Shown: piece after piece, positions 2,118-39,522 of the stretch
Layout: every line of letters begins with the position of its first letter
Position numbering within the stretch: position 1 is the first letter of the stretch
From: an uncultured delta proteobacterium
GTDB lineage: Bacteria > Desulfobacterota > Zymogenia > Zymogenales > Zymogenaceae
NCBI GenBank assembly: GCA_963848155.1
Contig: CAWKCL010000007.1
Coordinates: 1,201,443-1,265,442 of the forward strand
Direction of reading: 5' to 3'
DNA: 64,000 nt
Position numbers and translations under genes: made by a program
The notes under the pieces: generated by a model
The model's database searches: none
What the model saw: only the letters and a program-made list of their open reading frames with translations
What the model was told of the DNA's origin: nothing

Positions 2118-2549
2118 TTAATAGAACAGGCCGCCGAGTATCCCGAGGAGCAGGATAATAGCTCCAGCCGTACCCATATCTTTCCTTAGGGCGTCGGTAA
2201 AGCTCTCGCGACGGTAGTTCTCAAGAAATGCGCTGATCTTATTATCCTGAATCCTCCTGATAATCCCGTCCCTGATCGCTTTCCTGTAGGCATCCGGCGT
2301 GAGCTCATATAGATCCGTGGTTTCGTTATAGAGTATTTTCTCTGAATCTACCGGCTGTTCCAGCGACAATTCAGTAATCATTGCATCGACGTCGGCCTCA
2401 GTAATAAGAAGATCATCGCTTGAACTGTTGTGATGAATGATCCACGACGCGGAGGAACATCCGCCTGCTATCACTAACAGACAGATCAGGCAACTCAATA
2501 TCATAGCCATTTTACACATAGAATAAATTTGTTTGTTTATTCTCCCCAT
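2118..2549 (-). CDS. lipoprotein (lipobox LVIAGGC) with C-terminal hydrophobic segment; possible o-spanin-like lysis accessory
   Basis: Signal peptide plus lipobox, then a C-terminal TM-like stretch. Last gene of the minus-strand holin/endolysin cassette. Confidence 0.35.
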   Translation of the reverse strand: MGRINKQIYSMCKMAMILSCLICLLVIAGGCSSASWIIHHNSSSDDLLITEADVDAMITELSLEQPVDSEKILYNETTDLYELTPDAYRKAIRDGIIRRIQDNKISAFLENYRRESFTDALRKDMGTAGAIILLLGILGGLFY

Positions 2550-2770
2550 AGATTTACCCCTATCCTTGTCAGCTCTTCGGAGCCCTTTTCTTTTAATCTC
2601 GCGGGAATGTACTCTCGTGTTACCTGTTCCTGGGCCTGAAGGCTCCGAGTAGAAACCTGTTTTTGTGTCAGAGTGTCTTCCCGGTATCTCTGAATACCCC
2701 AGAGCATTATAAGCGCCCAGAAGATTATGATAATGGTAATAAAGAGGATCCTCTTTTTAGTCAGTATCAT
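2537..2770 (-). CDS. small membrane protein with N-terminal TM; possible i-spanin-like
   Basis: 77 aa. One N-terminal TM helix, then a charged coil-like tail. Overlaps its neighbours in an operon-like way. Confidence 0.3.
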   Translation of the reverse strand: MILTKKRILFITIIIIFWALIMLWGIQRYREDTLTQKQVSTRSLQAQEQVTREYIPARLKEKGSEELTRIGVNLWGE

Positions 2771-2951
2771 ATTTCACCTCCACTTCCTTTCCCTTCTTCC
2801 CATCAACTAACTTAGTTAGAACGTTTGCACCCATATACGCGGCGAAAATGAGCGCCAGGTTGAAATCAAACCGGCCCGTCCAGACATATACTATGCATGC
2901 CAGCACGAGGGCAAGGAACTTGCGCCCTCCGATAGCCTCCCATATCTTCAT
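2757..2951 (-). CDS. putative holin (small, one to two TM helices, charged C-terminus)
   Basis: 64 aa. Hydrophobic core ...FLALVLACIVYVW... and a lysine-rich C-terminus. 4-nt ATGA overlap with the endolysin gene. Confidence 0.4.
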   Translation of the reverse strand: MKIWEAIGGRKFLALVLACIVYVWTGRFDFNLALIFAAYMGANVLTKLVDGKKGKEVEVKYDTD

Positions 2952-3394
2952 ACTACCGCCTCGTATGCATTATCCCATGATACATAGACCTGCTTTCCCT
3001 TCCGTGCTACCGCGCCCCAGCGGGCGAATGTTCCCCGAGTATCAAGATGAAACCCGGACTGCGCCCAATGGGGATAGATCCCGAGCCCTATGTTACCAGC
3101 CACCCCGATACCCCTCGGAGGTGCCGATATAAACCCTTCCATCAGCCCGACGGCATCCTTAAACGGTATATCTTCTATCCAGAAGTCAACGGCCTTGCCG
3201 ACGTAGTGTTGTGATGTCGCCGAGTGTCCCGTCCCCGGACTCCATGCCGACGTGATATGAATCGGTGAGCAAAACAGGTCGCGTATTGTGTCGATAAGAA
3301 AGACAATCGACTGCTCCATCATGGAGGGATTCGGGGAAAATTCCTGTGCCTTGAAATACTTGACCCGTTGCCAATCTTGATCTCGCATCTTCAT
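2948..3394 (-). CDS. phage endolysin, peptidase M15 family (L-Ala-D-Glu / D-Ala-D-Ala peptidase type)
   Basis: 148 aa. ...YFKAQEF...HITSAWSP...HS...SQHYVGKAVDF...SGFHLD... matches the Zn-binding H..D...H arrangement of M15 peptidases. Confidence 0.65.
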   Translation of the reverse strand: MKMRDQDWQRVKYFKAQEFSPNPSMMEQSIVFLIDTIRDLFCSPIHITSAWSPGTGHSATSQHYVGKAVDFWIEDIPFKDAVGLMEGFISAPPRGIGVAGNIGLGIYPHWAQSGFHLDTRGTFARWGAVARKGKQVYVSWDNAYEAVV

Positions 3395-3397
3395 GGC

Positions 3398-3619
3398 TTA
3401 TCCCTGAATATCATTACTAGAAACGGTCGCAAGCGACGGGACCGCTCCGGCCAAAAATCCCCACATCCCGGCCTTGACTTTGAGCATGGCGAGATCAACG
3501 ACGTTGCAGTCCACCTTTTTTTCAAGGTCGTCAATCCGGCGTAGTATGTCCCCCGTCCGTTCGATCATCATGCCCTGAAACCGCGCCTGTGTGATCTGTT
3601 CTCCGTTGCCGTCCATCAT
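3398..3619 (-). CDS. small hypothetical protein in the phage tail/lysis operon
   Basis: 73 aa. 4-nt overlap with the upstream gene. C-terminal hydrophobic stretch. Confidence 0.3.
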   Translation of the reverse strand: MMDGNGEQITQARFQGMMIERTGDILRRIDDLEKKVDCNVVDLAMLKVKAGMWGFLAGAVPSLATVSSNDIQG

Positions 3620-3888
3620 CGATACACCTGCCTTGTTGTCGTCGCGCCGATCTTCGTTGTTTTCCCCGCTATCTCCGCCTGTCTCTTATCCCCCGAGAGA
3701 TACCTGATCGATACATAGTCATTGGCGGTATAGTTCACCCCCGATGCCGAATAGACCATGATCCGGCGCCCGCTGGTAAGCTCCACCAGGTGCCGCCCCT
3801 CGCCGTCCACGGATATCACCTTTGCCGTGGCGCAGTTATTGACCTGGGCGGCCCGCGCCGCCCGCGCAATGTATGTTTTCAGGCTCAT
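3616..3888 (-). CDS. hypothetical phage structural-module protein
   Basis: 90 aa. Translationally coupled (4-nt overlaps) on both sides. Confidence 0.3.
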   Translation of the reverse strand: MSLKTYIARAARAAQVNNCATAKVISVDGEGRHLVELTSGRRIMVYSASGVNYTANDYVSIRYLSGDKRQAEIAGKTTKIGATTTRQVYR

Positions 3889-4259
3889 TCAAACGCCTCG
3901 TACTTTTCGAGCGTCAGCGTGATCTTCGTCCCCTTGTCGTTCCCGCTCAAAGACACGCCCTGGATATAGAGTACCTGGTTGATCAGTCCAACCTCGGGAC
4001 ACGTCACCTTGATATGCTTTCCCACTTCAAGCAGATACCCGTTCGCGGGATACGGCATCGATACGGTATAGGAATCGATGATCTTCCATGCCTTGTTAAG
4101 CTCCGCATACCCCCGGTTGATCGCATCGGCCTCGGTGATGATAAGGGAGTCCGTCACCGCGTCAAGCGGTCTGGAACCGTCCCCGTAATGGCAGGATACG
4201 CTTATCATGTGCTCTCCCAGTAGTAGGGTACTTTGACCTTGACCTGTATCGGTGACCAT
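3885..4259 (-). CDS. hypothetical phage structural protein
   Basis: 124 aa. Operon position between fibre-like genes and the lysis genes. Confidence 0.3.
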   Translation of the reverse strand: MVTDTGQGQSTLLLGEHMISVSCHYGDGSRPLDAVTDSLIITEADAINRGYAELNKAWKIIDSYTVSMPYPANGYLLEVGKHIKVTCPEVGLINQVLYIQGVSLSGNDKGTKITLTLEKYEAFE

Positions 4260-4603
4260 TTCGTGACGCAGGTATCGGAGTCATCGTTTGTCACGTTTGA
4301 ATTGGTGATGCTCCCCGGTATCGTGATCGAGGCCGTCTTTGTCGTGTATCCCGTTTTCGTCAGCGTCGCGACCCCCGTTATGCCCGGCTGCCCCTTCGAG
4401 AACGTCAGGATACCATTGACGTTGGTATATCCGGTCTCGGTATCGTCGCCCCACGCGATAGAATAGTAGGCGTTTTCTATCACCGCATCGGTGTTTGCGT
4501 CCTTGACGATCCTCGACCCCGATACGTAGGTCTTGCCCGTGTTGTCCTGGTTCGTGGTGTCGGAACCGGCCGCCGGAAGCTCCTGAAGCGCCTGTACGGT
4601 CAT
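4205..4603 (-). CDS. Thr/Ser-rich beta-rich phage structural protein (fibre/receptor-binding-like)
   Basis: 132 aa. T/S/G/N-rich composition typical of tail fibre tips. Confidence 0.3.
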   Translation of the reverse strand: MTVQALQELPAAGSDTTNQDNTGKTYVSGSRIVKDANTDAVIENAYYSIAWGDDTETGYTNVNGILTFSKGQPGITGVATLTKTGYTTKTASITIPGSITNSNVTNDDSDTCVTKWSPIQVKVKVPYYWEST

Positions 4604-4693
4604 GCCTAAATAGGTTATCCAGTGCGTACCCGTTTCATACGCAACGTCCCACTCTACCCCGCTGAAGCCCTGCGGCAGATTTCAAAGACGGCC

Positions 4694-5653
4694 TTACTGG
4701 TCTCGAATCTCGCCCGTCTTGCCGAGCGGACAATAGACCCCGGCAGTGAACCGATGTCTGCCGTCGGAGTTAACGGCCGGCTGCGCCTTTCCCGAAATCG
4801 TAATCCAGCGGGTGATTCGGTCTGCCCCGCCGGCGCCACCACCGCGCCGCTCCCGCCGCTCCCATACGGGCTTTCGATGGTGATGAAGGCCGACCCCACT
4901 TCCCCCCCGCATTGCGCGACGATCATGTTCTGTATCGAGGTCGTCGGGACCGTCCCGGTATGCCGGATAGGAGAACGTCGTGGTGGCTATCCCGGTGCAG
5001 TCATACGTTACCTGAATCGGCGTGACCGAGCTCGGTAATGGGGTTGCCAGCGTGATGGTATTGCCGTCCACCGTGGCCCTGGACGCATAGTTCACGCCGG
5101 TATAGGGTAAGCCGTTCTCATACCGATAGATCGAGGTCAAGGAGCTGATCTGGTATTGCGTGGATACCTCGATTTCGGATACGGGGTAGATCGGGTTGTA
5201 CTGCCCGTTTTCAATCCCCCCGTCGGTGATGGATACGGTCGTGGTCGTGGCCGTCGTCGGGGTAACGACACCTGCGTAGTCTATGAGCTGATCATGCCCG
5301 ATGACCCGTATATCGACGTATAGCCCGTTGTCGGCGGGGTATCCGTCGGAATCAAGCACCTGTATCTTGACCGTCGAGGTCTCGCCGATTGACACGGAAG
5401 AAGGGTCGCAGCTCACGTCCACCTGCCCCACCCGTGGGTCTGCTATCGTCACGGTGAGCTGGGCCGTCTGCGCGTCGAGGTAATCAGCTGATACTATCGC
5501 GTACCCCCCTCCCCCGGATGATGCCCGCAGCGTCGCCTCGGCCCGTCCGTTCTTGACCAGTACTTCCGTCGGAGAGATATCGGCGTATGCGTCCACCGAG
5601 AAGGTGACGGTGTTGCCTCCGTAGTAGGTGACAAGGTAGGTCGTGTCGGCCAT
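4694..5653 (-). CDS. phage tail fibre/Ig-like repeat structural protein
   Basis: 319 aa. T/S/V-rich beta-strand-like segments (...VTPTTATTTTVSITDGGIENGQY...). The C-terminal tail of the ORF is probably a frame artefact. Confidence 0.35.
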   Translation of the reverse strand: MADTTYLVTYYGGNTVTFSVDAYADISPTEVLVKNGRAEATLRASSGGGGYAIVSADYLDAQTAQLTVTIADPRVGQVDVSCDPSSVSIGETSTVKIQVLDSDGYPADNGLYVDIRVIGHDQLIDYAGVVTPTTATTTTVSITDGGIENGQYNPIYPVSEIEVSTQYQISSLTSIYRYENGLPYTGVNYASRATVDGNTITLATPLPSSVTPIQVTYDCTGIATTTFSYPAYRDGPDDLDTEHDRRAMRGGSGVGLHHHRKPVWERRERRGGGAGGADRITRWITISGKAQPAVNSDGRHRFTAGVYCPLGKTGEIRDQ

Positions 5654-5690
5654 CGCCGTTCCAACGCGGATCGTGCGGGCGTCGATGATC

Positions 5691-6565
5691 TCATAGGGAC
5701 CCGCGACGACCGATGAGATCAGACTGCTTGACGATCGAGACGACCCCGCCCTCCGTGTCGATCATGTAGGTCGTGGAGATTTCGTAGTGGTCGTTGGTCG
5801 CCGGGGTCTGTTCCTCGTCGGTCTGCAATGTGACATCGGGTATCGTCATGTCCTCGTTCCGGCAGGTCGCGGTGATGGTGCAGGAGTCATAGCCGTTGGA
5901 TTTGAGCTTGTACTTCGATGCCTCGATGCTGAAATCTGCGCCCACCCGTCGGTGATCGAGGTATCCATGAACCCCTCTACCGTGACCTGATTTTCGCCGT
6001 TCGGGACCGTCCGGGATTGAGAGATGGATACGATATCGCCCGAGGAAATGGACACGACCGGGGTCTTCCCGGCGGTCTCAAAGTCCTTATACGCGCACAC
6101 GAGGTTATCCGAGCGGTCGGTATAGACCAGTCCCCCCCCGGCCTCGACGATCTTCTTGATGACCGATATCGGGGGTTCGTCGTCACAGGCTAAAGCCCCG
6201 ATAGGAAGGGGAGCGTCAGGGATGCCCCACGTGGTCGTCAGGCTCTTTGCCGTGGCAAGGGCGCTCACCACCGCGTATTTGCCCGTCGCCTCGTCATAGA
6301 GCGTCTGTAGCCTTTCGGAAAACGGGATATCGAGCAGGGCAGTCATTGACCTGCCCGAGAGGGTGCAGGAATAGGACTTATGGGCGGCGTTCTCGGATTT
6401 GTTTTCGATCAGGAACTCACCTAAAGAATACCCGTTCGCGTCTATGATATCTATCCGGGCGGTGTCGAAGTCCGAATCCGAAAACTTCCGGGTCTGGATA
6501 GACTGCGCGTATGCCCGGTCTTTCACGGTTACGGAAACGGTCTTTGCAAAACGTCTGGTCGTCAT
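5691..6565 (-). CDS. phage structural protein (baseplate/tail-associated candidate); apparent frameshift joins two ORFs
   Basis: 239-aa plus 84-aa overlapping same-strand ORFs. Confidence 0.3.
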
Positions 6566-8850
6566 AGTCGATAGACCAATCCGTGACTTTACTCGATACG
6601 TCCGCGCCGTCGATCTCGACCGTGGCCTGGTTGGATAAGTTGCTTACCCTTGATGTTTACCGTCTGCCATGACCCGTCAAGGTAGATAAGCTGCCCCTCG
6701 ACCCCGATATTGTTCAAGAGGGTGAAGTATCACGGTACGGCGTGTGGTCGAGGATAGAGTTCTTGATGGTGAACGAATCCCGGTAGTTTGTCGTCAGGTT
6801 ATTGAGTATCGTCAGTATCGGGGATTTCTTGTAGGCCTTCGTCAGGCAGTTTCTTATCGAGAAGCGGTTGCGGTGCGATGATGTCCTCGACGTAGAGAGA
6901 ATCGAGAATAAGCTGGCCGTAGGTCGGTCAGCAATTTCTGGATCGCCTAACCATCCAATAGATAATCTTTGGTTGTCCCCCGCCGCACTGTGCCGGTCTC
7001 GCTGATTTCGGGACCGTCATGCGCATATAGAGAGAATCTGTGTACCGGGATTCCACGTTACAGTAAGAGTGTAAGTGGTATTGACCGCGATTGATATTCC
7101 TAACATAGTCCGTAGAATCGACGGTCCACGCGTTTGTCGCCCATCATAACAATAGGGCCGTTCCCGCCGTATCGTAATAAACTCCATCGCTCATAATATG
7201 TTCCGCCATTGTTATAATTGATAACAAAAAGATAAGCGTGCCGATTGAATCAATTACAGGGGCTGTGGCGGAATCGGCAAGTGGCACACTGGGTAAATCG
7301 CAATCTCCATCGGAGCGATGTAAGTGGTAACTAATTGTATACGAGAATCGAAATCTTGATTGGCTCCTGATAGTTCGGCCTTGGTAATGGCATCCGACAC
7401 GATCATCGCCGCATCTGTGTTCGCAAAGGTCTTTATATAGCCATAGGTCCCATCTTGATAGACAGTACCGTTTCCGTCAGCATCAGTATTGATGCCCTTC
7501 CTGAAATTCATTGTTGGGTAGATTGAAGTATTCTTTTAAAAAAAAGCTCATTTGGCAAATACCGCAAACGTCAATAGCGCCCGCATTATTCGCCGGGTCG
7601 GAATCGTGCATCCCATAGGAAAGAACCCCATCATCGCCCAAATCAAGAACCGTATGAGCTCCCGCCCACACGTTTTCCGCTTCCGCCTGCGTGGTAAATG
7701 TGATATAGTTGCTTTCCAACGATCCCGCCCGGCCCACACGTCGCAAAGTCACCAGCCGTTTTAAACCCGAGCGTCCCGAGAAAGATATTCCCAGCCGGTA
7801 CGTTATCATTGTAGAAACCGCTTCACACCGACGACTTTAACCGTCCTTTTACCAGATGATGGATGATACTGCTAATCCCATAACTCCCCGGCGATTCGTT
7901 CCAGTCGTACTCGCCGAACTTGCGGGCCATGAAAATATCCCGATCAACTCCCATCCCGTTTCATCCGCATCAATCGGGGTCATGTAGATAATCCCGGTCA
8001 GTTCCGGCAGGGGTTCCATGTAGATAACTCCCGTCATTCGCCGGGAGGGGGTCATGTAGATGGTGTCGTCAGGCATTACGCCGTTTCCCCATCCAAGGTG
8101 AAGGTACACTTGTTCCCGTCATAAGCCGCCGTAGAGGCAGGCACGACCCTTTAAACCACACCCCCTTTGCCGACGGGGTGGTCGTGAATACTATCGTATC
8201 CCCATTGGCCCACGTCCCGCCCCAACAGGTAGCGGGGATTGAGAAGTAATAAGACCCCCAGTGCGCGGGTGTGAAGGCCGCCGCCGTCGTACCTGCTCCC
8301 AAAGAACCTCGGTAGCACCGGAGACCGTGAAGTTTGTCGCGTCCGAGAAGGTTACGGTGAAGGTGTCGCGGCAGGCCCCGAGGTCATAGTCCACGATGTT
8401 GTCGGTAAACGTCCCCAGCGGTCGTCCCGCCCCAGCACGAGGTCGGAATCGAGAAGTAATAACGACCCCCAGTGCGCGGGCGTGAAGGCAGTGCCTATGG
8501 TCCCTGGCTCCTAAAGACCCTCTCCGTAGCCCCGCAACCGTGAAGTTGGTTGCGTCGCTGAGAAGGTCACGGTGAAGGTATCGTAGCAAGCACCGAGGTC
8601 ATAGTTCACAATGTTATCCGTAAACGTCCCGAGATGGCGAGGTCTTTACCGGCGTTGAATGAGAAGCCGCGATCGTCCCGAGTTCCAGCACCCCGGCTAC
8701 CACCGTCCCCGTAGTCCCATAATGAACGGAGTTATCAAGGCCAAGCTCCGTGTCGGCCGTGGAGTCGGAAAGTACCTGTATCGAGTTTTCGGCGTAGTAG
8801 TCGTCAGTCGCTATCTCAACCTTCGTACCGGCCAGGCGGAGGCCGTACAC
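6566..8850 (-). pseudogene. fragmented phage structural gene(s)
   Basis: Six or more short same-strand ORFs (7254-8850), plus ~0.7 kb (6566-7253) with no ORF. Coding-like composition. Contains a ~211-bp tandem duplication. Confidence 0.3.
8213..8634. repeat. ~2 tandem copies of a ~211-bp unit inside the fragmented structural gene
   Basis: Unit 1 starts gtcccgccccaacaggtagcggggattgagaagtaataagacccccagtgcgcgggtgtgaaggc. Unit 2 starts gtcccgccccagcacgaggtcggaatcgagaagtaataacgacccccagtgcgcgggcgtgaaggc. The 211-bp period is not a multiple of 3, so the copies fall in different frames. Confidence 0.6.
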
Positions 8851-9763
8851 CCCGTCGTAGCGTCATTGATCGACCGTGGCGACCTGGGCCGCGGTCATGT
8901 CCATCGGCAGAAAAGGTCACGGTCTGCGAAGTCCCCCCGTTGACTTGAATAACCAGCGTGAGCCCGTTAAGATCAAACGTCTCGTCCTCTGTCCCCGTCA
9001 CCATACCCTTCGTCTTTACCGCGTGGTTCGAGACGCAGGCGGTGGAGATGGTGAGCGTCCCTTCCGTCCCGGCCCATGAGGCCGCCGTGACAAGGCAGTA
9101 TTCAATCGTCGGCGGAGTAGAAACGTCCCAGTCTATGAGGGCGATATACTGACCCGGCAGGACACACGCCGTTACCTCAAAATCGGCCACGACGGAAGTA
9201 TCCGCCCCACCCGTGAGCGCGGTATTAAGGTCTCCCGAGCCGGTGTACCAGGTATGCACGATGTCGGTTGTCGCAGGGTCGGAACCGCGTATCATCGTAG
9301 AAATCGTGGAATGGGTCGTGTCGATATATGTCGCTACGGCAGCAATCCCCCGGAAGGCCCCGGCAGCCGTTGTAAAAAGCAGGAGAGTCCCCGGCGCGAG
9401 CGCGGCCTGCGCCGCACCTAACGTGATCTGCCGGGTTGGTAATGACCATGTAATAGTGGTATTCCATCCGATATCATCTGCCGTCAGCTGCGTATCATCA
9501 TCGCCGCCTCTCGTGATGGCGAAATAGTCCCCGGCGGTAGAAAGGCGGTCGATCATAAACTTGGCATTTGTCAGGGTCCCGGAAAGTTTCTTCAGGAACG
9601 CCTTTCTGTACCTCGTCAGCCCCGCCGTCCGCTGCGCCTCGGTGACGTGGGGAAAGAGGTTTTCGGCGGCGTTATCGACGACGGCATTATTCGTGATAAC
9701 ACCGCCGTTTCCCGCCTCGTCCGAAATGACAGAGGATTTATAAAGTCCGGTTGTTGCGCTCAC
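8816..9763 (-). CDS. phage structural protein (tail tube/sheath-like candidate)
   Basis: 315 aa. Beta-rich T/G/A-rich sequence. Sits in the structural operon. Confidence 0.3.
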   Translation of the reverse strand: MSATTGLYKSSVISDEAGNGGVITNNAVVDNAAENLFPHVTEAQRTAGLTRYRKAFLKKLSGTLTNAKFMIDRLSTAGDYFAITRGGDDDTQLTADDIGWNTTITWSLPTRQITLGAAQAALAPGTLLLFTTAAGAFRGIAAVATYIDTTHSTISTMIRGSDPATTDIVHTWYTGSGDLNTALTGGADTSVVADFEVTACVLPGQYIALIDWDVSTPPTIEYCLVTAASWAGTEGTLTISTACVSNHAVKTKGMVTGTEDETFDLNGLTLVIQVNGGTSQTVTFSADGHDRGPGRHGRSMTLRRGVRPPPGRYEG

Positions 9764-9839: not shown

Positions 9840-10229
9840 TCATCCCACGCACATCAGGTAAATGGTGCCGTACCACCAGTCGTCATCACCGGGATTCGAG
9901 AGCGTCAGTAATGTCTCCATCTGTATCGCCCCGCCGGATTGCTCATTACGGAAGCGGACGGTGTAACTCGTTCCGTTGAGCGTGAGCGTATAGTAAGCCC
10001 CCACGACTGCCGAGAGTGCCCTGAGTGATGTAACGGTAGACCCAAGTACCCATCCGGTTTCTTTGGTAGATTGCAGGGTGATGGGGTAACGCTGTTCCCG
10101 CTTATGAGACCGGACAATTTCAGTACCGTCAATTGCTGTCGCTGTTTCGGTACATACGTCGCTTTGTCGGTTTCTGTCAATCCAAAGAGGAGTACTATCG
10201 AGAGATATGCCGCCAATACTACAGCTCAC
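9840..10229 (-). CDS. hypothetical phage structural protein
   Basis: 129 aa. Operon position. Confidence 0.25.
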   Translation of the reverse strand: MSCSIGGISLDSTPLWIDRNRQSDVCTETATAIDGTEIVRSHKREQRYPITLQSTKETGWVLGSTVTSLRALSAVVGAYYTLTLNGTSYTVRFRNEQSGGAIQMETLLTLSNPGDDDWWYGTIYLMCVG

Positions 10230-10379: not shown

Positions 10380-11147
10380 CTATGGCGTGTATATTTCCCA
10401 GCGTCCGTATGCTCCGTAAACTCCACCGACATCTTTTAGGAATCTGATTCTACTGGCCACACCCGCCCACGAACCGCCATCCCCGGGTTTCAGGGGGAGT
10501 TCCGTCGTAGAAGAGAAGCTGACCCTGCTATGGGTTATCCGCAGGTTGTCTCCGTTAAGCAAGGGCTTAATGAGGCGTACGGTAAAAACGGAAGGCGCCG
10601 GATTTTCGAAGATATTAAAGCACTTGCCGGCATAGGTGTTATACGCATAATCAACACATACCGTCTGGCCCTCCCCGATTGACCCACCTGCGATCCGTTT
10701 CAGATGCCCGCCTTTACGGTCCAGGTAGTAATCCTCCCCCTCGATATAGGTAACGCTGCCCTCCCGGTTAGTGACGTCTACGGCGCTATCAAAGGTAAAA
10801 TCGGCTGCATGGGCAAGCGCAATCCAGTCTATCCCCATCATTATCACGTCTTCATTTACTACCGTTTGAATACCGGCTGTCGTTGTAGTTATGCTCCCGC
10901 CGTGTAATACGATTACCCATAAGCCTATATCGGCGATCTCCTCCCACGTGAACTCGATTTCCACATCCACGTTACCAAAGACCGTTTTATCAACACCGCG
11001 CGGATGCTCAGAAACATCAAAATGGGTAATCTCTTCCCCGTTAACGCGTACGATTTCTTCTCTGATGATCCCAAGGACTTGCCAACCGGAACCGCCGTTG
11101 ATTTCAATTGTCCCTACCGCGGACCGATCGAGGTTTTCCGTTCCCAT
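10380..11147 (-). CDS. phage structural protein (major tail/tube candidate)
   Basis: 255 aa. Follows connector-like genes in the transcription order. Confidence 0.3.
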   Translation of the reverse strand: MGTENLDRSAVGTIEINGGSGWQVLGIIREEIVRVNGEEITHFDVSEHPRGVDKTVFGNVDVEIEFTWEEIADIGLWVIVLHGGSITTTTAGIQTVVNEDVIMMGIDWIALAHAADFTFDSAVDVTNREGSVTYIEGEDYYLDRKGGHLKRIAGGSIGEGQTVCVDYAYNTYAGKCFNIFENPAPSVFTVRLIKPLLNGDNLRITHSRVSFSSTTELPLKPGDGGSWAGVASRIRFLKDVGGVYGAYGRWEIYTP

Positions 11148-11171: not shown

Positions 11172-11630
11172 TTAATCGCCCTTCGGCAAGAACTGAAAAG
11201 ATATCGTATACCTATAGTCAAAGAGGCCCGCCCCGGTAATCACACCGTCTCTTCCGTCCTCGAAGACGTTATAAACAATAAACCGGGCCGTCAGGAAGCT
11301 CTTCCTGTGTAACAGCCCTCGAAGCCTCCCCTCGATTGCCGCCCTCAGATCCCGGGCCTCGGGCCTGGTGAATATGTGCAGGCAATACCGCTCCGTCCTT
11401 TCTTCAATTGCGGAACCGAGGAGGACCGGCGCGGGGGCAGGCATGGTCTCTATCACGATATAGGCCGGTTTGCCCGTGCTTATCCTCTGGGTTTCCGAAT
11501 CACTCAACGAAAGATTGATCCGTCTATCGATCTCGTCCCCTCCCAAATACGCTGAGAGGGAGGAGTCCCCGGTCAGTATCCCGTATACCAGCTCCTGGAT
11601 GTCGCTTTCAAACACCGTCATTTCAGGCAC
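11172..11630 (-). CDS. tail-completion/neck protein candidate (DUF3168-like pattern)
   Basis: 152 aa. ...KPAYIVIETMP...RYCLHIFTR... resembles phage head-tail joining / minor tail proteins. Confidence 0.3.
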   Translation of the reverse strand: MPEMTVFESDIQELVYGILTGDSSLSAYLGGDEIDRRINLSLSDSETQRISTGKPAYIVIETMPAPAPVLLGSAIEERTERYCLHIFTRPEARDLRAAIEGRLRGLLHRKSFLTARFIVYNVFEDGRDGVITGAGLFDYRYTISFQFLPKGD

Positions 11631-11659
11631 CCCACATAAGCATCAGACTGAAAGGTCAA

Positions 11660-36316: not shown

Positions 36317-37564
36317 TCAGGGGTCTTGCCTCCCCTTCATCTTCTCTACCATCTGTTCGTCGTAGCCGAGTTCCTTGAGCGCCTCGGTCATAAACCCCCG
36401 GTCGGCCAGGAACTGCGCCCGCGCCAGCACGTGCTGGGGGTCCTCGCCGGAGAGAGACGGAAACGATACCGTCGCCACGAAGAGGCCGGTGCCGAACTTG
36501 ACCGCGAGGAACTTCTCTATCAGTTCCTCGAAGCCTCTCCTCAGATAGATCAGCTTCTTTTCGGTATACCGCTTGAGGCCCTCGAGCAGCGTGTTGAGCG
36601 CCTTGGCCGACGTGGCCGACGAGGCGACCTCCTCCCTGAGCTTCCGGGGTACGCATCCCAGCCGGTAGAGGTGGTCCAGCGCGTCCTCGAGCTCGCGCTC
36701 CACCGCCGAGAGGTCAACGTCGCCCCCCACCGCCTCCAGGGGGATCGGTGAGAGCGCCCCGGGCGATACGGTGATGGTCGTGCCCGGCTGCACGTGGCCC
36801 GATTCCTTGGGCGCCCATACCCGAAAGCTGTTATATTTCGTGGCCCAGGCCCGCTTGGTCAGGGCCATGTTCACGGCCAGCTGCCCCTCGACCAGGTCCT
36901 GGATTCCCGAGCGGCCGTAGGGGCTCCCCTCCGATTCCTCCCGGAGGATCTTGACAACCGGGATAAAGCCGAAGGCATGCGCCTCTCTCTTTACGAGCCT
37001 TCCGTCGATATAAAAGGAGAAGCCCTCCGCGTCGATCTCTTCCCGCATGGCCGACATCCTCACGCCTCCACCCTCCAGCGTCGCCGCCTCTTCCCACCCG
37101 AAGACGTATTTCTTGACTTCGAGGTAGTTCTTCTCGTCGGTGATGACTTCCACGTCCTGGGAATACATCTTCTGGACACAGACCTCCCCGCCCCTGACGA
37201 AGAGCTTCAAAAAGAGCGTCCCGTAGTTCTCCTGCGTCAGGTAGTAGCCGGGCAGCGCCTCCCAAAAGGTGCGGCCGCCGCCGAAGTTGCGGGACTTCAG
37301 CCACGCCGTTACCTCGCCGGTCAGCCCGTCGTGGGGCGCGGTCTCGCCCCTCCTGGTCACGACAACGTCGAAGGTCGGCGGCATGAAGTTAGCCCTCGTG
37401 TCCTGGATGACCCGGATGTCGTTTTGAAAATAGAAGTCCCTGATAGATATCCGCTGCTCTTTCGGCAGACCTTCGGCAACCCGGCGGCCCGTGAAATCTT
37501 TGAAGATTGCCTCCCGGCGGCCGTCGTAATAGTCCAGGAAGAGCTTCATGTCGTTTTTGTTCAT
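36317..37564 (-). CDS. phage portal protein
   Basis: Start MNKNDMKLF (37564). ~415 aa. Downstream of the large terminase. Central ...SPYGRSGIQDLVEGQLAVNMALTKRAW... and a helical C-terminus typical of portal proteins. Confidence 0.6.
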   Translation of the reverse strand: MNKNDMKLFLDYYDGRREAIFKDFTGRRVAEGLPKEQRISIRDFYFQNDIRVIQDTRANFMPPTFDVVVTRRGETAPHDGLTGEVTAWLKSRNFGGGRTFWEALPGYYLTQENYGTLFLKLFVRGGEVCVQKMYSQDVEVITDEKNYLEVKKYVFGWEEAATLEGGGVRMSAMREEIDAEGFSFYIDGRLVKREAHAFGFIPVVKILREESEGSPYGRSGIQDLVEGQLAVNMALTKRAWATKYNSFRVWAPKESGHVQPGTTITVSPGALSPIPLEAVGGDVDLSAVERELEDALDHLYRLGCVPRKLREEVASSATSAKALNTLLEGLKRYTEKKLIYLRRGFEELIEKFLAVKFGTGLFVATVSFPSLSGEDPQHVLARAQFLADRGFMTEALKELGYDEQMVEKMKGRQDP

Positions 37565-37628
37565 ATGATTCCCTTTCGCGGGCCGTGCCGGTAAACCGGC
37601 CGCAACCGCGGGAGAAAGTCCGAACCCC

Positions 37629-37847
37629 CTACAGGGCGGCCTTCCCAAAGTCGTCCTGGGAGACCTTCCGGCGCCTGACGAGCCTCGCCCAGCGGACCGT
37701 ATCCATCGGCAGTATCGCGGCGACCCTGAACCACCGCCGGACGACGACCGCACCGTCGCGAACGTCTATCGATCTCACGTTTGAGAAGGACCGCGTTTCT
37801 CCGTCCGTAAACCGCACCTCGGCATCCATACCGGCTCCTGTCATCAA
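37629..37847 (-). CDS. small hypothetical protein between terminase and portal
   Basis: 72 aa. ATGA-type 4-nt overlap with the terminase stop suggests translational coupling. Confidence 0.3.
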   Translation of the reverse strand: MMTGAGMDAEVRFTDGETRSFSNVRSIDVRDGAVVVRRWFRVAAILPMDTVRWARLVRRRKVSQDDFGKAAL

Positions 37848-39067
37848 AAACCAAGCGTCCGTTCAAAGTCCGACTGGCTCACCCTGATCCCCCTGATCCC
37901 CCACGCGGCAAGCGCCAGCGATATGACACAGTCATCATGGAAACCCGCCGGCGCCCCGTACGAGACGCCCCCTCCCGGGAGGTTTTTCAGCTCGAACATC
38001 GCCAGCTCGTCGACCAGCTCCTGTATCGGGGGGATACTGATCTTCCGCTCGTCGATCAGGAGGACAAGGTTTTCGATGAGCGCCGACTTTGATTCGTTGG
38101 TGAATCGAAAACCCCGGCAGGCCGCCCCCATCCGTATCAGGTCTTCGAGGATCGGATCGCCCACGCCGGTGGAATCGACCCAGGCGACGGCCCGGTTGTA
38201 CCGCCTGATCGCCGAGACCACCCGCCGCTTCATCGCCGTCCAGGTCGTCCCGGAGAAGCGGTCAAAGTAGACGACCGATCCCGTGGCGTCGACAATCGTC
38301 AGCACCGTGTAGTCGCGGTGCCTGCCGATATCCAGTCCCGCGGTATACCGTCCGCCGGGCAGCGGGTCGGCCAGTCCCCCCGTGACGATGTCGTTGACCC
38401 CCGAGAAGACGCCCGCCCCGTCGTCGATGAACCGGGCCAGGTACTCCTGGGCGAAGACCGCCTCGGGCAGGGTCCGCCGCGCGTCCTCGATCTCTTCCGG
38501 GCGTATGTACGGGTTATTTTCGGTGGGAAAGGTGAAGGATTGCCAGCCCGCCTGCTCGCTGTCCATCCCGCGGGAAAAGAGGCGAAAAAACCAGTTCTTC
38601 CCCTTGGGCGTGCCCACAAAGAGCGCCTTGCCCTGCCGGTCCGAAAGCGCCGGCCTCAGGACCTCCTCCCAGAGGTCTTTCGAGAGGAAGGCCGCCTCGT
38701 CCACCACCAGGAAGTCGATGCCGAACCCCCGCAGGTTTTCCGGGATCTCGGCGCTCCTGAACTCGAGCACCGACCCGTTGACGAGGCCGACCCTCCGGTC
38801 GGTTTTGTGGATATCGGCCACCGCCCCCCTCGGCATCCCCCGCCTCACCAGGTCAAAGGCGATCGCGCTCTGGCGCAGCACCGGCGCCACCCAAAACGAG
38901 AGGGAGCCCGGCTTTTCCCAGGCGTGCCTGACCATCTCCGCCGTGGCGGCCAGCGTCTTTCCCCACCTCCTGCCGCACGCGGCCACCCTGAAACGGGCGT
39001 CCGATTCGTGCAGGGCCTTCTGGCCCGCGTGGGGGCGGTACAGCTTAAGTCTCTTGGTCTTCGTCAT
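37844..39067 (-). CDS. phage terminase large subunit
   Basis: Start MTKTKRLKLY (39067). Walker A-like ACGRRWGKT and Walker B IDFLVVDEAAF. ...GTPKGKNWFF... C-terminal RNaseH-like nuclease with ...GLDIGRHRDYTVLT... and ...GFHDDCVISLALAAW... Confidence 0.75.
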   Translation of the reverse strand: MTKTKRLKLYRPHAGQKALHESDARFRVAACGRRWGKTLAATAEMVRHAWEKPGSLSFWVAPVLRQSAIAFDLVRRGMPRGAVADIHKTDRRVGLVNGSVLEFRSAEIPENLRGFGIDFLVVDEAAFLSKDLWEEVLRPALSDRQGKALFVGTPKGKNWFFRLFSRGMDSEQAGWQSFTFPTENNPYIRPEEIEDARRTLPEAVFAQEYLARFIDDGAGVFSGVNDIVTGGLADPLPGGRYTAGLDIGRHRDYTVLTIVDATGSVVYFDRFSGTTWTAMKRRVVSAIRRYNRAVAWVDSTGVGDPILEDLIRMGAACRGFRFTNESKSALIENLVLLIDERKISIPPIQELVDELAMFELKNLPGGGVSYGAPAGFHDDCVISLALAAWGIRGIRVSQSDFERTLGF

Positions 39068-39311
39068 CGATAAAGGTCGCCTCGTAAACCACTTCGTCTT
39101 CGTTGCCCGTCCTTTCCGAGATGAGGTCGATATACTTGAGGTAAAGCTCCTGGTACTTGATGTCTCCCTCCCCGGCCTTTTTGACGATGTCCCGAAAGAC
39201 CGCGTCGGCGCCCCCCGCTCCGGCGGCATCCCCGTCACCGGCGGGAGCGCCGCCGTCGGGCCGCGCGGGCGGGGCGGCCCCGGTCCCCTCTTCAATGCAT
39301 TTCTTCTTCAT
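39045..39311 (-). CDS. small acidic protein upstream of terminase (possible small-subunit-like or unknown)
   Basis: 88 aa. G/A/D-rich N-terminus, then ...VFRDIVKKAGEGDIKYQELYLKYIDLISERTGNEDEVVYEATFIDDEDQET. Overlaps both neighbours. Confidence 0.3.
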   Translation of the reverse strand: MKKKCIEEGTGAAPPARPDGGAPAGDGDAAGAGGADAVFRDIVKKAGEGDIKYQELYLKYIDLISERTGNEDEVVYEATFIDDEDQET

Positions 39312-39522
39312 TCACCCGCCGCTTTAGATAGTCCTGTATCCGGTCGATTCGATAGGCCACGTCCGACTGGGTAACGCCGATGCTGTCGCCGATATACCCC
39401 TGGGAGTATCCCCGCCGGTGCATCAGCCATATCCAGAGCTCCATGTCGGGCATTTCCATCAGCGCCCGCTCGTAATCCACCACGAAATTATGCTCCGCAA
39501 AGAAGGTGTCACCTTTATACAT
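39292..39522 (-). CDS. sigma-70 region-4-like (HTH only) small protein; candidate terminase small subunit or ArpU/RinA-like late activator; paralog of 20818-21071
   Basis: Start MYKGDTFFAEH, with GGAGG 9 nt upstream. ...YERALMEMPDMELWIWLMHRRGYSQGYIGDSIGVTQSDVAYRIDRIQDYLKRRV... Confidence 0.5.
   Translation of the reverse strand: MYKGDTFFAEHNFVVDYERALMEMPDMELWIWLMHRRGYSQGYIGDSIGVTQSDVAYRIDRIQDYLKRRVNEEEMH

What the first reader, a model, noticed from the sequence alone, without database searches (positions are those of the whole stretch)
2118..39522. Phage-derived system split into a structural+lysis locus and a separate terminase+portal locus, with no integrase, replication genes or tape measure
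The 2.1-17.0 kb minus-strand block carries scaffold, DUF2190 decoration, a lambda-E-like capsid, connectors, tail/fibre-like genes and a holin / M15 endolysin / spanin-like cassette. It has no terminase or portal, and it abuts ordinary metabolic genes on both sides (crotonase, nitroreductase). The matching packaging genes (sigma4-like HTH, small acidic ORF, large terminase, portal) sit 19 kb away at 36.3-39.5 kb. They lie on the same strand, in the orientation expected if the two blocks were once contiguous (packaging, then head, then tail, then lysis). The intervening DNA contains core purB/purF. No integrase, excisionase, replication protein, tape measure or att-like tRNA was seen anywhere in the 64 kb. 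This pattern (structural, packaging and lysis genes retained, mobility and replication genes absent, modules dispersed) is what gene-transfer-agent-like domesticated elements look like. The alternative is a prophage bisected and partly decayed by rearrangement; the fragmented 6.6-8.85 kb structural gene favours some decay.
Basis: partly seen in the sequence, partly recalled or inferred. Interest (0 to 1): 0.75.

Follow-up and report, generated by a model that had tools for sequence, protein, structure and literature searches.

The report
Domesticated split phage-particle gene system
Two separate groups of phage-derived genes (DNA-packaging genes, and 19 kb away the head, tail and lysis genes) have been inherited with the chromosome in at least five related uncultured Desulfobacterota genomes, kept intact by selection and placed behind one shared promoter; this is the genomic signature of a gene-transfer-agent-like particle system, but no particles have been observed.

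Summary
Block 1 (2118-16993, minus strand) encodes scaffold, a decoration-like protein, the major capsid protein, connectors, a siphovirus-type tail tube protein, fibre and hub proteins, and a holin / M15 endolysin / spanin-like cassette. Block 2 (36317-39589, minus strand) encodes a 76-aa sigma-region-4-like protein, a small acidic protein, large terminase, a 66-aa protein and the portal. Core host genes (purB, purF) lie between the blocks. I found no integrase, replication gene, tape measure or tRNA.

The split is not a recent accident. The same two loci lie between the same host genes, on one contig, in five Candidatus Zymogenaceae genomes. The packaging locus also sits beside gltX in the Zymogenus saltonus type genome. 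Both blocks diverge in step with their flanking host genes (similar dS), with dN/dS of 0.03-0.33, and each has taken on the GC3 of its own flank. A related phage carries the portal and the capsid side by side, so the blocks share one ancestry. A conserved motif, TCATAWWNYYNAT plus a -10 element, precedes the packaging, head and tail units.

The "fragmented" tail gene is probably an assembly artefact, but real decay in this strain is not excluded. The best reading is a host-maintained, co-regulated, GTA-like system. DNA transfer is untested, and the missing tape measure is unexplained.

The parts
39577..39589 (-). Packaging-unit promoter motif TCATAATCTTCAT. A -10-like TAGAAT lies 20 nt downstream at 39551-39556.
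   Evidence: Orthologous sites are conserved in L004, L005, L013 and L030.
39295..39522 (-). HTH76: a 76-aa stand-alone sigma-factor region-4-like (-35-binding) domain. Candidate activator of the three units.
   Evidence: AF2 pLDDT 85. Top Foldseek PDB hits are sigma region 4 domains: 3hug, 2h27, 3vfz, AlgU, SigR; TM 0.6-0.8, E 0.06-0.3. Sub-threshold Sigma70_r4/r4_2 hits. dN/dS 0.10-0.20 against the three closest orthologs (L004, L005, L030); 0.32 against L013.
39045..39311 (-). 88-aa acidic protein with a conserved C-terminal half and a variable low-complexity N-terminus. Function unknown; a small-terminase role is only a guess.
   Evidence: Orthologs of 76-141 aa in L005, L013 and L030. No family hit.
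37844..39067 (-). Large terminase, 407 aa.
   Evidence: Terminase_6N 2e-15, Terminase_6C, phrog_2 5e-46. A Walker-A-like GKT motif and a DE Walker-B-like motif can be read in the translation. dN/dS 0.15-0.17 against the closer relatives; 0.25 against L013.
37629..37829 (-). Conserved 66-aa ORF between terminase and portal. Function unknown.
   Evidence: Orthologs of 66-67 aa in L004, L005, L013, L014 and L030. dN/dS 0.17-0.33 against the closer relatives; 0.59 against L013.
36317..37564 (-). Portal protein, 415 aa, SPP1 gp6-like.
   Evidence: dN/dS 0.08-0.14 against the closer relatives; 0.24 against L013.
17051..17063 (-). Head-unit promoter motif TCATATTCTTAAT. A -10 TACAAT lies at 17026-17031.
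   Evidence: Conserved in L001, L007, L008, L009 and L010.
16283..16993 (-). Scaffolding protein, 236 aa.
   Evidence: Weak phrog_2303 hit. Homologous to the PF06810 scaffold of L003. dN/dS about 0.29.
15790..16269 (-). 159-aa protein between scaffold and capsid. Called decoration-like from its position only.
   Evidence: No Pfam hit. 54% identical to the gene at the same position in phage L003. dN/dS 0.05-0.06.
14782..15765 (-). Major capsid protein, 327 aa (Phage_capsid_4). A hairpin follows at 14747-14766.
   Evidence: dN/dS 0.03-0.04.
14232..14740 (-). Two small head-completion/connector genes of about 100 and 67 aa.
   Evidence: The second has a 42% homolog in phage L003. dN/dS 0.10-0.26.
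12574..14078 (-). Embedded gene for a secreted four-repeat protein (423-485 aa) with its own perfect sigma70 promoter (14049-14078). A terminator lies at 12270-12295. Probably a conserved moron rather than a virion part.
   Evidence: Present in L001, L007, L008 and L009. One frameshift in the window near 12760.
12208..12220 (-). Tail/lysis-unit promoter motif TCATATTATTCAT. A -10-like CATACT lies at 12183-12188.
   Evidence: Conserved in L007, L008, L009, L015 and in the displaced tail unit of L001.
11172..11974 (-). Two neck / tail-terminator-like genes of 104 and 152 aa.
   Evidence: 32% homologs in the same order in phage L003. dN/dS 0.06-0.31.
10380..11147 (-). Siphovirus-type major tail (tube) protein, 255 aa.
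   Evidence: phrog_807 1e-15. 27% identical to the major tail proteins of Cylindrospermopsis phage Cr-LKS3 and Ruegeria phage V16. dN/dS 0.12-0.23.
9840..10229 (-). 129-aa tail gene at the position where siphoviruses carry the tail-assembly chaperone.
   Evidence: phrog_4408 9e-20. Elevated dS against the closest relative.
8079..9763 (-). Tail-fibre-like gene. It is an intact 489-684 aa ORF in relatives. In the window it is broken by about 9 small indels at 8462-8899.
   Evidence: The C-terminus resembles annotated tail fibres. phrog_6128.
4205..7551 (-). Large hub / tail-tip gene. It is an intact 1060-1106 aa ORF in L016 and a JGI contig. In the window it is split by at least 3-4 frame changes.
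   Evidence: phrog_6079/1887 tail protein. Similar to tail proteins of Pseudomonas siphophages.
3616..4208 (-). Two small tail-tip genes of 107 and 90 aa.
   Evidence: Weak phrog_177 baseplate-hub hit for the L016 ortholog. dN/dS 0.06-0.18.
2118..3619 (-). Lysis cassette: a holin-like 73-aa protein, an M15-type endolysin (2948-3394), and three small membrane proteins. The last (143 aa) has a lipoprotein-like N-terminus and a C-terminal hydrophobic segment. A terminator lies at 2092-2117.
   Evidence: dN/dS 0.03-0.32 for all but one comparison (the 77-aa gene versus L016, 0.52). The spanin reading comes from inspecting the sequence.

Best explanation
The two blocks are the two halves of one phage-derived particle system. 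It has been fixed in the chromosome of the Candidatus Zymogenaceae lineage (class Zymogenia, Desulfobacterota) for a long time and is maintained by the host.

Ancestry (shown):
- The ancestor was an SPP1-like siphophage head module: terminase, portal, scaffold, decoration protein, capsid, connectors.
- The packaging genes are now beside gltX. The head, tail and lysis genes are between a nitroreductase gene and a crotonase gene.

Proposed mechanism (inferred):
- A host signal turns on the packaging operon. Its first product is a 76-aa stand-alone sigma-region-4 domain.
- This protein recognises the TCATAWWNYYNAT element, which occupies the -35 region of its own promoter and of the head and tail/lysis promoters. 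All three units would then fire together.
- Capsids assemble on portal and scaffold, and the terminase fills them by headful packaging.
- The element has no excision, replication or contiguous genome, so the DNA packaged would be mostly host DNA.
- Tails attach, and the holin, M15 endolysin and spanin-like proteins lyse the producer cell.
- Functionally this is a gene transfer agent (GTA), or a closely similar host-serving particle.

Status of each step:
- Shown: gene content, common ancestry, conservation, selection, the shared promoter motif, and the predicted fold of the regulator.
- Inferred: which protein binds the motif, that particles form, what they carry, and how a tail forms without a tape measure protein at this locus.
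For: (1) Same layout in five genomes.
- Genomes, each with both loci on one contig: the window's own source; MFD04716 contig_8174 (941 kb); Zod_maxbin.0311 JAFGAS010000074 (160 kb); MFD05674 (578 kb); GCA_040961635.1 JBFOMZ010000277 (98 kb).
- Where both positions are known, the loci are about 20-24 kb apart on the same strand, between the same host genes.
-.

(2) The packaging locus sits beside gltX even in the Z. saltonus type MAG.
- There TerL and portal are 65% identical to the window's.
- gltX and DUF401 are 63% identical.
-.

(3) Nei-Gojobori dN/dS is 0.03-0.33 for the comparisons with the closer relatives across both blocks (up to 0.5-0.6 for a few small ORFs against the most distant genomes). 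dS equals that of the flanking host genes: 0.11-0.35 against the closest genome and 0.5-1.8 against more distant ones.

(4) Every gene checked is an intact ORF in L005/L008, L016/L030 and a JGI contig.

(5) Common ancestry. Phage L003 carries portal (47%), scaffold (35%), decoration protein (54%), capsid (62%) and connectors (32-42%) contiguously and in the expected order.

(6) Each block has the GC3 of its own flank.
- Portal 0.85 and TerL 0.86, against gltX 0.89.
- Capsid 0.70, against nitroreductase 0.67 and purF 0.69.

(7) Shared promoter.
- The exact pattern hits only the three unit-upstream sites in 64 kb, where 0.30 hits are expected by chance.
- A weight matrix trained only on scaffold-upstream sites from five other genomes ranks the tail and packaging sites 2nd and 3rd of 128,000 positions.
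- The motif is held at a fixed 19-20 nt from a -10 element in all orthologs.
- It is also kept in L001, where host genes have been inserted between the head and tail units.
- It is found in L030, which was not used for training.

(8) HTH76 folds as a sigma region 4 (-35-binding) domain.

(9) No integrase, replication gene, tRNA or att-like feature was found in the window or in the flanks of the relatives.

(10) The fibre region evolves faster and shows allele replacement: dS about 1.1 against 0.13-0.35 for its neighbours. RcGTA recognition loci behave the same way (PMC5026251).
Against: - No tape measure protein was found. The relatives of the tube protein (Cr-LKS3, Ruegeria V16) always carry a chaperone and a tape measure protein next to it. 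Tail assembly is therefore unexplained unless that gene lies at a third locus.
- In this window the fibre and hub genes carry more frame changes than the host-gene rate predicts: about 9 small indels (a count from a 78%-identity alignment, so approximate) in 450 nt, against about 0.36 per kb. This strain's tail could be defective.
- No small terminase could be recognised.
- Capsid size and packaged DNA are unknown.
- Whether the head/tail block exists in Z. saltonus, or the packaging block in the L001 genome, is unknown.
- All genomes are MAGs. No expression or particle data exist.
- The link between regulator and motif is inferred from position and fold only.
Confidence: 0.6

Rival explanations
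1. A host-maintained phage-derived particle that does something other than transfer DNA. Candidates are a killing particle, programmed lysis with DNA release for biofilm or nutrients, or a decoy or defence against related phages. The architecture and regulation would be as in the best explanation, with a different payload or purpose.
For: The conservation, selection and co-regulation evidence says only that the system is useful, not what it is used for. The missing tape measure protein could mean the tail does not inject DNA in the usual way.
Against: TerL and portal are under purifying selection as strong as that on gltX. This argues that filling heads with DNA is part of the selected function. 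Tailocins and similar killing particles have lost their head and packaging genes.
Confidence: 0.2
2. A prophage cut in two by a rearrangement and now decaying neutrally, with no function.
For: Fragmented fibre and hub genes in the window, and two in-frame stops plus frame problems in the hub gene of the closest relative. Integrase, replication genes and tape measure are missing.
Against: - dN/dS is 0.03-0.33 at dS up to more than 1.
- All ORFs are intact in three other assemblies.
- The element is retained at the same sites down to 63% gltX identity.
- The promoter motif is conserved.
- Host genes in the same window carry the same single-base indels.
- The indel-to-substitution ratio in the fibre gene is far too high for neutral decay.
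Confidence: 0.07
3. Two unrelated phage remnants that happen to lie 19 kb apart, each kept for its own reason.
For: The TerL family (Terminase_6N) differs from that of the closest phage, L003 (Terminase_3). The two blocks differ in GC by about 8-10 points.
Against: - The portal and the capsid module both have their nearest phage relatives in the same phage.
- The same promoter motif precedes both loci.
- The two gene sets are complementary, with no duplicated function.
- The GC difference matches the local flanks.
- Terminase swapping is common in mosaic phages (general knowledge).
Confidence: 0.05
4. A helper-dependent satellite or mobilisable island. It would borrow the missing functions (tape measure, replication, excision) from a co-resident phage and still spread horizontally.
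For: It lacks a tape measure protein and a recognisable small terminase. Capsid-forming satellites are known to encode their own head and packaging genes.
Against: - No integrase, primase/replicase or att sites.
- The chromosomal positions are fixed and dS is host-like, which means vertical descent.
- The two halves are separated by purB and purF, so no single excisable unit exists.
- Unlike capsid-forming satellites, it has its own tail and lysis genes.
Confidence: 0.05

Closest known systems
RcGTA of Rhodobacter capsulatus and the alphaproteobacterial GTAs, including CcGTA of Caulobacter
   Same: - Phage-derived head, tail and packaging genes with no integrase or replication genes.
- Vertically inherited between conserved host flanks.
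- Under purifying selection.
- Genes spread over several co-regulated loci.
- Recognition genes evolve faster (PMC5026251).
- A dedicated activator with sigma-factor-like DNA-binding regions binds near the -35/-10 of its own promoter and of the GTA promoters (PMC9638019).
   Different: - No homology of the parts. Here the capsid is Phage_capsid_4, the portal is SPP1-type and the head uses a scaffold with no protease.
- RcGTA keeps terminase, portal, capsid and tail in one cluster and has a tape measure protein (my own knowledge). Here terminase and portal are the part that is split off, the lysis genes are attached to the tail unit, and no tape measure was found.
- The regulator is a bare 76-aa sigma-4 domain, not a GafA homolog.
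VSH-1 of Brachyspira hyodysenteriae
   Same: A GTA of independent origin, encoded at two separate chromosomal loci (stated in PMC5026251).
   Different: Different phylum and no sequence relationship was tested here.
BaGTA of Bartonella
   Same: A GTA whose loci are integrated by shared transcriptional control (bioRxiv 10.1101/2024.11.20.624540; abstract seen).
   Different: BaGTA is a chimera of two phages coupled to run-off replication and controlled by antitermination. Here both loci trace to one phage lineage, and no replication module was seen.
Dd1 of Desulfovibrio desulfuricans
   Different: To my knowledge its genes have not been identified, so no comparison is possible. The host belongs to a different class.
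SPP1-like siphophages; the nearest relative is the phage on contig PJEL010000461.1 (locus L003)
   Same: Portal 47%, scaffold 35%, decoration-position protein 54%, capsid 62% and three connector proteins 32-42%, in the same order.
   Different: L003 is contiguous and has a 299-aa gene between portal and scaffold. It also has a different terminase, a tape measure protein, a different tail and 41% GC. It lacks the TCATA promoter motif.
Tailocins and capsid-forming phage satellites (cf-PICI)
   Same: Domesticated or parasitic subsets of phage structural genes.
   Different: Tailocins have no capsid, portal or terminase. Capsid-forming satellites have integrase and replication genes and no tail genes. 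Here heads, tails, packaging and lysis are all present, and the mobility genes are absent.

Membership tests
Gene transfer agent (functional definition) | The cell produces phage-like particles. | not testable with these tools
   Only gene content is available. Head, connector, tube, fibre, hub, packaging and lysis genes are present. No tape measure protein was found.
Gene transfer agent (functional definition) | Particles package essentially random host DNA, and hold less DNA than is needed to carry the genes that encode them. | not testable with these tools
   Indirect only. The genes span 37.5 kb, interrupted by 19.3 kb of host DNA, with no excision or replication genes. Head capacity is unknown.
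Gene transfer agent (functional definition) | Packaged DNA is delivered to recipient cells. | not testable with these tools
   No cultures exist; all genomes are MAGs.
Gene transfer agent (genomic proxies) | Vertical inheritance at conserved chromosomal sites across a clade. | tested here: met
   Five genomes have both loci between the same host genes. The packaging locus is beside gltX in Z. saltonus. dS equals that of the flanks.
Gene transfer agent (genomic proxies) | Purifying selection on the structural and packaging genes. | tested here: met
   Pairwise dN/dS is 0.03-0.33 against the closer relatives, and 0.03-0.04 for the capsid. These are pairwise Nei-Gojobori estimates only. dS is saturated for the distant pairs.
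Gene transfer agent (genomic proxies) | No integrase, excisionase, replication or lysogeny-control genes. | tested here: met
   Pfam/PHROGs scans of the phage-derived genes and of most, not all, other ORFs of the window, plus precomputed Pfam on the relatives' flanks. No tRNA.
Gene transfer agent (genomic proxies) | Dispersed loci under common regulation. | tested here: inconclusive
   A shared, conserved promoter motif precedes all three units, and a sigma-4-fold protein is encoded first in the packaging unit. Co-expression itself was not measured.
RcGTA-type (alphaproteobacterial) GTA family | Homology to the RcGTA gene cluster and the GafA regulator. | not tested
   No direct comparison with RcGTA proteins was run. 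Here the capsid is PF25209, the portal is SPP1-type, there is no prohead protease, and the regulator is a 76-aa sigma-4 domain. From memory, the RcGTA parts belong to other families, so an independent origin is likely but untested.
Intact temperate prophage | A contiguous genome with integration, regulation and replication modules and att sites. | tested here: not met
   purB, purF and other host genes separate the halves. No integrase or replication genes. The positions are fixed in five genomes.
Siphovirus-type tail | Tube protein plus assembly chaperone plus tape measure protein. | tested here: not met
   The tube protein (phrog_807) and a chaperone-position gene are present. No tape measure protein lies at the locus in any of the genomes examined, unlike in the annotated relatives. 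A gene elsewhere in the genome cannot be excluded.
Tailocin | Tail-only particle with no capsid, portal or terminase. | tested here: not met
   Capsid, scaffold, portal and terminase are present and under selection.
Capsid-forming phage satellite (cf-PICI) | Integrase, replication module, own capsid and packaging genes, no tail genes. | tested here: not met
   No integrase or replication genes. Tail and lysis genes are present.
Sigma factor region 4 domain (for HTH76) | A four-helix -35-binding fold. | tested here: met
   The model has pLDDT 85 with helices at 10-23, 26-36, 41-48 and 52-75. Nearly all the top PDB matches are sigma region 4 domains, TM 0.6-0.8. By sequence it is only sub-threshold. 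Foldseek E-values are weak (0.06-0.3) because the domain is small.

The most novel reading that the evidence does not exclude
Candidatus Zymogenaceae carry a previously undescribed, independently evolved gene transfer agent with three unusual features:
- Its packaging module (terminase and portal) was separated from the head, tail and lysis module long ago.
- Its three transcription units are driven by a promoter whose -35 region is read by a self-encoded, stand-alone sigma-region-4 protein.
- Its siphovirus-derived tail works without a tape measure gene at the locus.

If correct, this would be the first GTA from the former Deltaproteobacteria whose genes are known, as far as I am aware.
Probability: 0.4. 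Interest if true: 0.8.

Novelty: new member of a known kind. Interest (0 to 1): 0.62.

Why it matters
As far as I know, only a few independently evolved GTAs have been described, and most mechanistic knowledge comes from Alphaproteobacteria. This would be a new, independently domesticated candidate.
- It occurs in an uncultured class of Desulfobacterota from anoxic sediments and soils. That would extend host-controlled DNA exchange to another major lineage.
- It comes with an explicit regulatory hypothesis: a bare sigma-4 domain plus a defined 13-nt element.
- It is a clean example of a particle "genome" being scattered while selection keeps every piece. In one relative (L001), metabolic genes were inserted between the head and tail units, yet both units kept the promoter.
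- The promoter motif gives a concrete way to find any further loci, such as a missing tape measure gene, in complete genomes.
- The work also shows that the apparent pseudogenes in this window should not be taken at face value, because the assembly carries single-base indels in host genes too.

Tried and rejected
- Megablast of both blocks against 50,697 phage records found nothing.
- An exact-protein look-up of the window capsid, and of the 100%-identical endolysin P0051, found no contig.
- IMG/VR scans: the capsid alignment found only 30-34% relatives with no shared tail genes. The tube-protein alignment found nothing.
- PDB sequence searches with the tube protein, fibre, hub and capsid gave nothing significant.
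The single-sequence model was useless, with pLDDT 32, so the tail type rests on HMM and BLAST evidence only.
- A search for a tape measure protein, prohead protease, integrase or replication genes by Pfam/PHROGs gave none. It covered both blocks, the intact orthologs in L016, and most other ORFs of the window.
- tblastx of phage L003 against the window found no further phage remnants in the 19 kb between the blocks.
- DUF2190 could not be confirmed for the decoration-position protein, even at E up to 5.
- Rfam gave no hit.
- Literature searches found no GTA or phage report for Zymogenia.
- One Pfam call failed on a coordinate error.
- I considered that the GC step at 34-35 kb marks a chimeric contig. 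I rejected this because three other assemblies are collinear across the junction, and the GC profiles of two of them (L005, L030) show the same step.

Full report
**What is in the window**

Greedy ORF calling and HMM scans give two minus-strand blocks of phage-derived genes.

Block 1 (2118-16993), in transcription order:
- a scaffolding protein
- a 159-aa protein at the decoration position
- a major capsid protein (PF25209, E 5e-16)
- two small head-completion genes
- an embedded gene for a secreted four-repeat protein
- two neck genes
- a 255-aa tail tube protein (phrog_807, E 1e-15)
- a 129-aa gene (phrog_4408)
- a fibre-like gene
- a large hub-like tail gene (phrog_6079)
- two small tip genes
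- a holin-like gene
- an M15-type endolysin (phrog_894, E 4e-10)
- three small membrane proteins

Block 2 (36317-39589):
- a 76-aa helix-turn-helix protein
- an 88-aa acidic protein
- a large terminase (Terminase_6N/6C; phrog_2, E 5e-46)
- a conserved 66-aa ORF
- an SPP1-type portal

Block 1 is bounded by crotonase and CorA on one side and nitroreductase on the other. Block 2 is bounded by gltX.

The 19.3 kb between the blocks holds host genes:
- a GmrSD-type restriction enzyme
- a LytR_cpsA_psr gene
- purB and purF
- a TPR protein
- a large PAS sensor
- zinc-ribbon membrane proteins

The rest of the window (40-64 kb) is ordinary host DNA. There is no tRNA, no Rfam family, and no integrase, replication gene, protease or tape measure protein. 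Two family labels are not: DUF2190 and lambda-gpE-like.

**The two blocks come from one phage lineage**

The closest bona fide phage is on a 47-kb contig (L003). It carries, contiguously:
- terminase
- a portal, 47% identical to the block 2 portal
- a 299-aa gene
- a scaffold, 35% identical
- a protein 54% identical to the decoration-position protein
- a capsid, 62% identical
- further on, three connector genes with 32-42% identity, in the same order

Only the terminase family differs, and terminase exchange is common in mosaic phages. The head module is of the SPP1 type, which uses a scaffold and no protease. The absence of a prohead protease is therefore not a loss.

**The split is old and conserved**

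Homolog searches and context look-ups show the same arrangement in other Candidatus Zymogenaceae MAGs. This family belongs to class Zymogenia, Desulfobacterota; the names come from the record titles and the preprint read.

Both loci lie on one contig in four other genomes (five with the window's source):
- MFD04716.bin.1.84: 941-kb contig, capsid 99%, portal 96%.
- Zod_maxbin.0311: 160-kb contig, capsid 94%, portal 89%, loci about 24 kb apart.
- MFD05674.bin.2.3: 578-kb contig.
- GCA_040961635.1: 98-kb contig, portal about 34 kb from the endolysin.

The host genes at every boundary and between the loci are the same as in the window, and the DNA is collinear. In the Z. saltonus type MAG the five-gene packaging locus again sits next to gltX.

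In a more distant genome (L001, capsid 76%) the head unit is still next to the nitroreductase gene. There an acetyltransferase, Fe-ADH, FGGY kinase, DeoC and cytochrome P460 genes have been inserted between the head and tail units.

**Selection and co-divergence**

Pairwise Nei-Gojobori estimates:

| Gene(s) | dN/dS |
|---|---|
| capsid | 0.03-0.04 |
| decoration-position protein | 0.05-0.06 |
| portal | 0.08-0.14 |
| terminase | 0.15-0.17 |
| tube protein | 0.12-0.23 |
| scaffold | about 0.29 |
| tip and lysis genes (one exception: 0.52, 77-aa gene vs L016) | 0.03-0.32 |

These values are for the closer relatives. The few comparisons with the Z. saltonus genome (L013) and the other distant loci are higher, up to about 0.6 for small ORFs.

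dS in the phage-derived genes equals dS in the neighbouring host genes. It is about 0.11-0.35 against the closest genome and 0.5-1.8 against the more distant ones.

Against Z. saltonus, TerL and portal are 65% identical. gltX and DUF401 are 63% identical.

GC3 tells the same story:
- Portal 0.85 and TerL 0.86 match gltX 0.89 and DUF401 0.85.
- Capsid 0.70, decoration-position protein 0.71 and scaffold 0.63 match nitroreductase 0.67, GmrSD 0.69 and purF 0.69.

Two blocks of common origin now each have the composition of their own neighbourhood. Neutral decay over this much divergence would have destroyed the reading frames. Instead, every gene checked is intact in three other assemblies.

**The "fragmented" gene**

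In this window the fibre gene (8079-9763) and the hub gene (about 4205-7551) are broken by frame changes. About nine small indels, a count taken from a 78%-identity alignment and so approximate, fall within 8462-8899 relative to the intact ORF of the closest relative.

The same kind of single-base indel also splits host genes in the window: GmrSD, a 392-aa gene, the PAS sensor and both zinc-ribbon genes. That is about 7 events in 19 kb of host genes for which an intact ortholog from another assembly was available. The related MFD assembly even has a split gltX. The sequence therefore looks like an error-prone, probably long-read, assembly.

The density in the fibre gene is well above the host-gene rate. 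However, there are far too many indels relative to substitutions for neutral decay, and the intact N-terminal part has dN/dS 0.11. I judge a consensus artefact in a hypervariable, strain-heterogeneous region to be more likely than real decay. I cannot exclude that this strain's tail is defective.

The fibre region also shows dS of about 1.1 against the closest genome, where its neighbours show 0.13-0.35. This points to allele replacement, as expected for receptor-binding genes.

**A shared promoter**

I compared the upstream regions of the three units across genomes. They share a 13-nt element, TCATAWWNYYNAT, which reads as two TCAT repeats. It is followed at a fixed 19-20 nt by a -10-like hexamer (TACAAT, TAGAAT or CATACT). 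The element therefore covers the -35 region.

- In the 64-kb window the pattern matches only three sites: 17051-17063 (before the scaffold gene), 12208-12220 (before the tail unit) and 39577-39589 (before the packaging unit). By chance 0.30 matches are expected.
- That pattern was derived from these sites, so I ran an independent test. A weight matrix trained only on the scaffold-upstream sites of five other genomes ranked the window's scaffold site 1st, the tail site 2nd and the packaging site 3rd of 128,000 positions.
- The orthologous sites are conserved in all relatives, including both the head unit and the displaced tail unit of L001, and in L030, which was not used for training.
- Extra copies precede the fibre gene in L009 and the 129-aa gene in L016.

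The embedded repeat-protein gene instead has a perfect sigma70 promoter and its own terminator. This fits a moron that is not part of the programme.

**The regulator candidate**

The first gene of the packaging unit encodes 76 residues.
- Sequence similarity to sigma70 region 4 is sub-threshold.
- An AlphaFold model is confident, with pLDDT 85 and four helices.
- Its best PDB matches are almost all sigma region 4 (-35-binding) domains: M. tuberculosis SigL and SigD, E. coli sigmaE region 4 on -35 DNA, AlgU and SigR. TM-scores are 0.6-0.8; E-values are weak because the domain is small.

A -35-binding fold, encoded behind a promoter whose unusual -35 region recurs at the other two units, suggests positive autoregulation and coordinated activation. 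This is inference; binding was not tested.

The parallel with GafA of RcGTA is functional, not homologous. GafA has sigma-like DNA-binding regions, binds near the -35 of its own promoter and controls several GTA loci (PMC9638019).

A 44%-identical paralog is encoded at 20817-21029 (+), upstream of the LytR_cpsA_psr gene. It is conserved in the relatives. Its role is unknown.

**What does not fit**

The tube protein is related to siphovirus tube proteins. In annotated phages these are always followed by a chaperone and a tape measure protein. No tape measure protein exists at this locus in any of the genomes examined. Either it is encoded elsewhere, which is plausible given how the system disperses, or the tail is unconventional. 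No small terminase could be recognised either.

**Comparison and verdict**

By every genomic proxy used for GTAs, this is a GTA-like domesticated element:
- vertical inheritance between conserved flanks
- purifying selection
- no mobility or replication genes
- several loci with a common control element
- fast-evolving recognition genes

These proxies follow PMC5026251. The parts give no sign of relationship to RcGTA, although no direct comparison was run. I found no published description for Zymogenia. I therefore file it as a new, independently derived member of a known kind.

It has three unusual features: the packaging genes are the part split off, the regulator candidate is a bare sigma-4 domain with a defined promoter element, and there is no tape measure protein at the locus.

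Particle production, DNA content and transfer remain untested. I put about 0.85 on "one host-maintained, co-regulated system" and about 0.4 on "a true DNA-transferring GTA".

Noticed in passing
window about 34000-35000 (boundary); 1-34 kb versus 35-56 kb: Host DNA steps from about 52% GC (GC3 0.60-0.77) to about 62% GC (GC3 0.83-0.89) within one collinear chromosome region. The same step is seen in L005 and L030. The cause is unknown. dS is also lower on the high-GC side.
   Followed up: partly
window 18890, 23129, 31347, 32703, 34919, 35506, and 46.6-49.1 kb and 54.4-56.0 kb: Single-base indels split ordinary host genes: GmrSD, a 392-aa gene, the PAS sensor, two zinc-ribbon genes, and probably the glycerol-3-phosphate dehydrogenase fusion and the amidase. 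The window looks like an error-prone long-read assembly, so apparent pseudogenes here are unreliable.
   Followed up: partly
window 20817-21029 (+): A 44%-identical paralog of the sigma-4-like HTH76 with a near-identical recognition helix. It lies upstream of a LytR_cpsA_psr gene (21144-22388) behind a normal-looking sigma70 promoter. It is conserved in L007-L009. It could be a second regulator of the system, or unrelated.
   Followed up: partly
window 12574-14078 (-): A gene for a signal-peptide protein with four repeats of about 100 aa sits inside the structural cluster. It has a 12/12 sigma70 promoter and its own terminator. It is conserved at this position in all relatives (43-93% identity) and has dN/dS 0.07-0.26.
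   Followed up: partly
window 8906-10229 versus L007/L015: The 129-aa tail gene and the fibre gene N-terminus show dS of about 1.1 against the closest genome, where adjacent genes show 0.13-0.35. The tip and lysis genes show dS 0.5-1.0, against 0.19 for crotonase and CorA. This suggests allele exchange of the host-recognition end of the cluster between lineages.
   Followed up: partly
L001 11895-19290: In GCA_016931225.1 an acetyltransferase and Fe-ADH, FGGY kinase, DeoC and cytochrome P460 genes lie between the head and tail units. Each unit keeps the TCATA promoter.
   Followed up: yes
L009 16052-16068; L016 2586-2602: Extra copies of the promoter motif with a correctly spaced -10 lie in front of the fibre gene (L009) and the 129-aa gene (L016). 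L008 and L016 also have a spacer of about 600 nt between the tube gene and the 129-aa gene that the window lacks.
   Followed up: partly
window 18220-19900 (-): A GmrSD-family type IV restriction enzyme gene lies next to the nitroreductase gene, between the two phage-derived loci. It is conserved in L007-L009.
   Followed up: no
window 41288-41887 and 42166-42501 (-): Two tandem paralogous ORFs of unknown function lie next to gltX. They share a motif of the form LPAGALSF...PNP.GAGK.DG..VSRDGKITYLD.PIVIDYK and have no family hit.
   Followed up: no
window 23955-24824 (+), 34310-35348 (-), 35486-36148 (-): Three membrane proteins with N-terminal Zn_ribbon_4 domains. Two of them follow the portal gene in the window and in L004, L014 and L030 (in L005 they lie two genes further downstream), but not in Z. 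saltonus. They are probably host genes.
   Followed up: no
L003 11386-16054: The related phage carries a block of sulfotransferase, glycosyltransferase, PIG-L deacetylase, methyltransferase and epimerase genes between its capsid and tail genes.
   Followed up: no
window 43711-43728 (+): The fourth-best weight-matrix hit (CTTTCATATCGTTCATAA) lies in an intergenic stretch downstream of the DUF401 gene, with no obvious gene behind it. It is probably a chance match.
   Followed up: no
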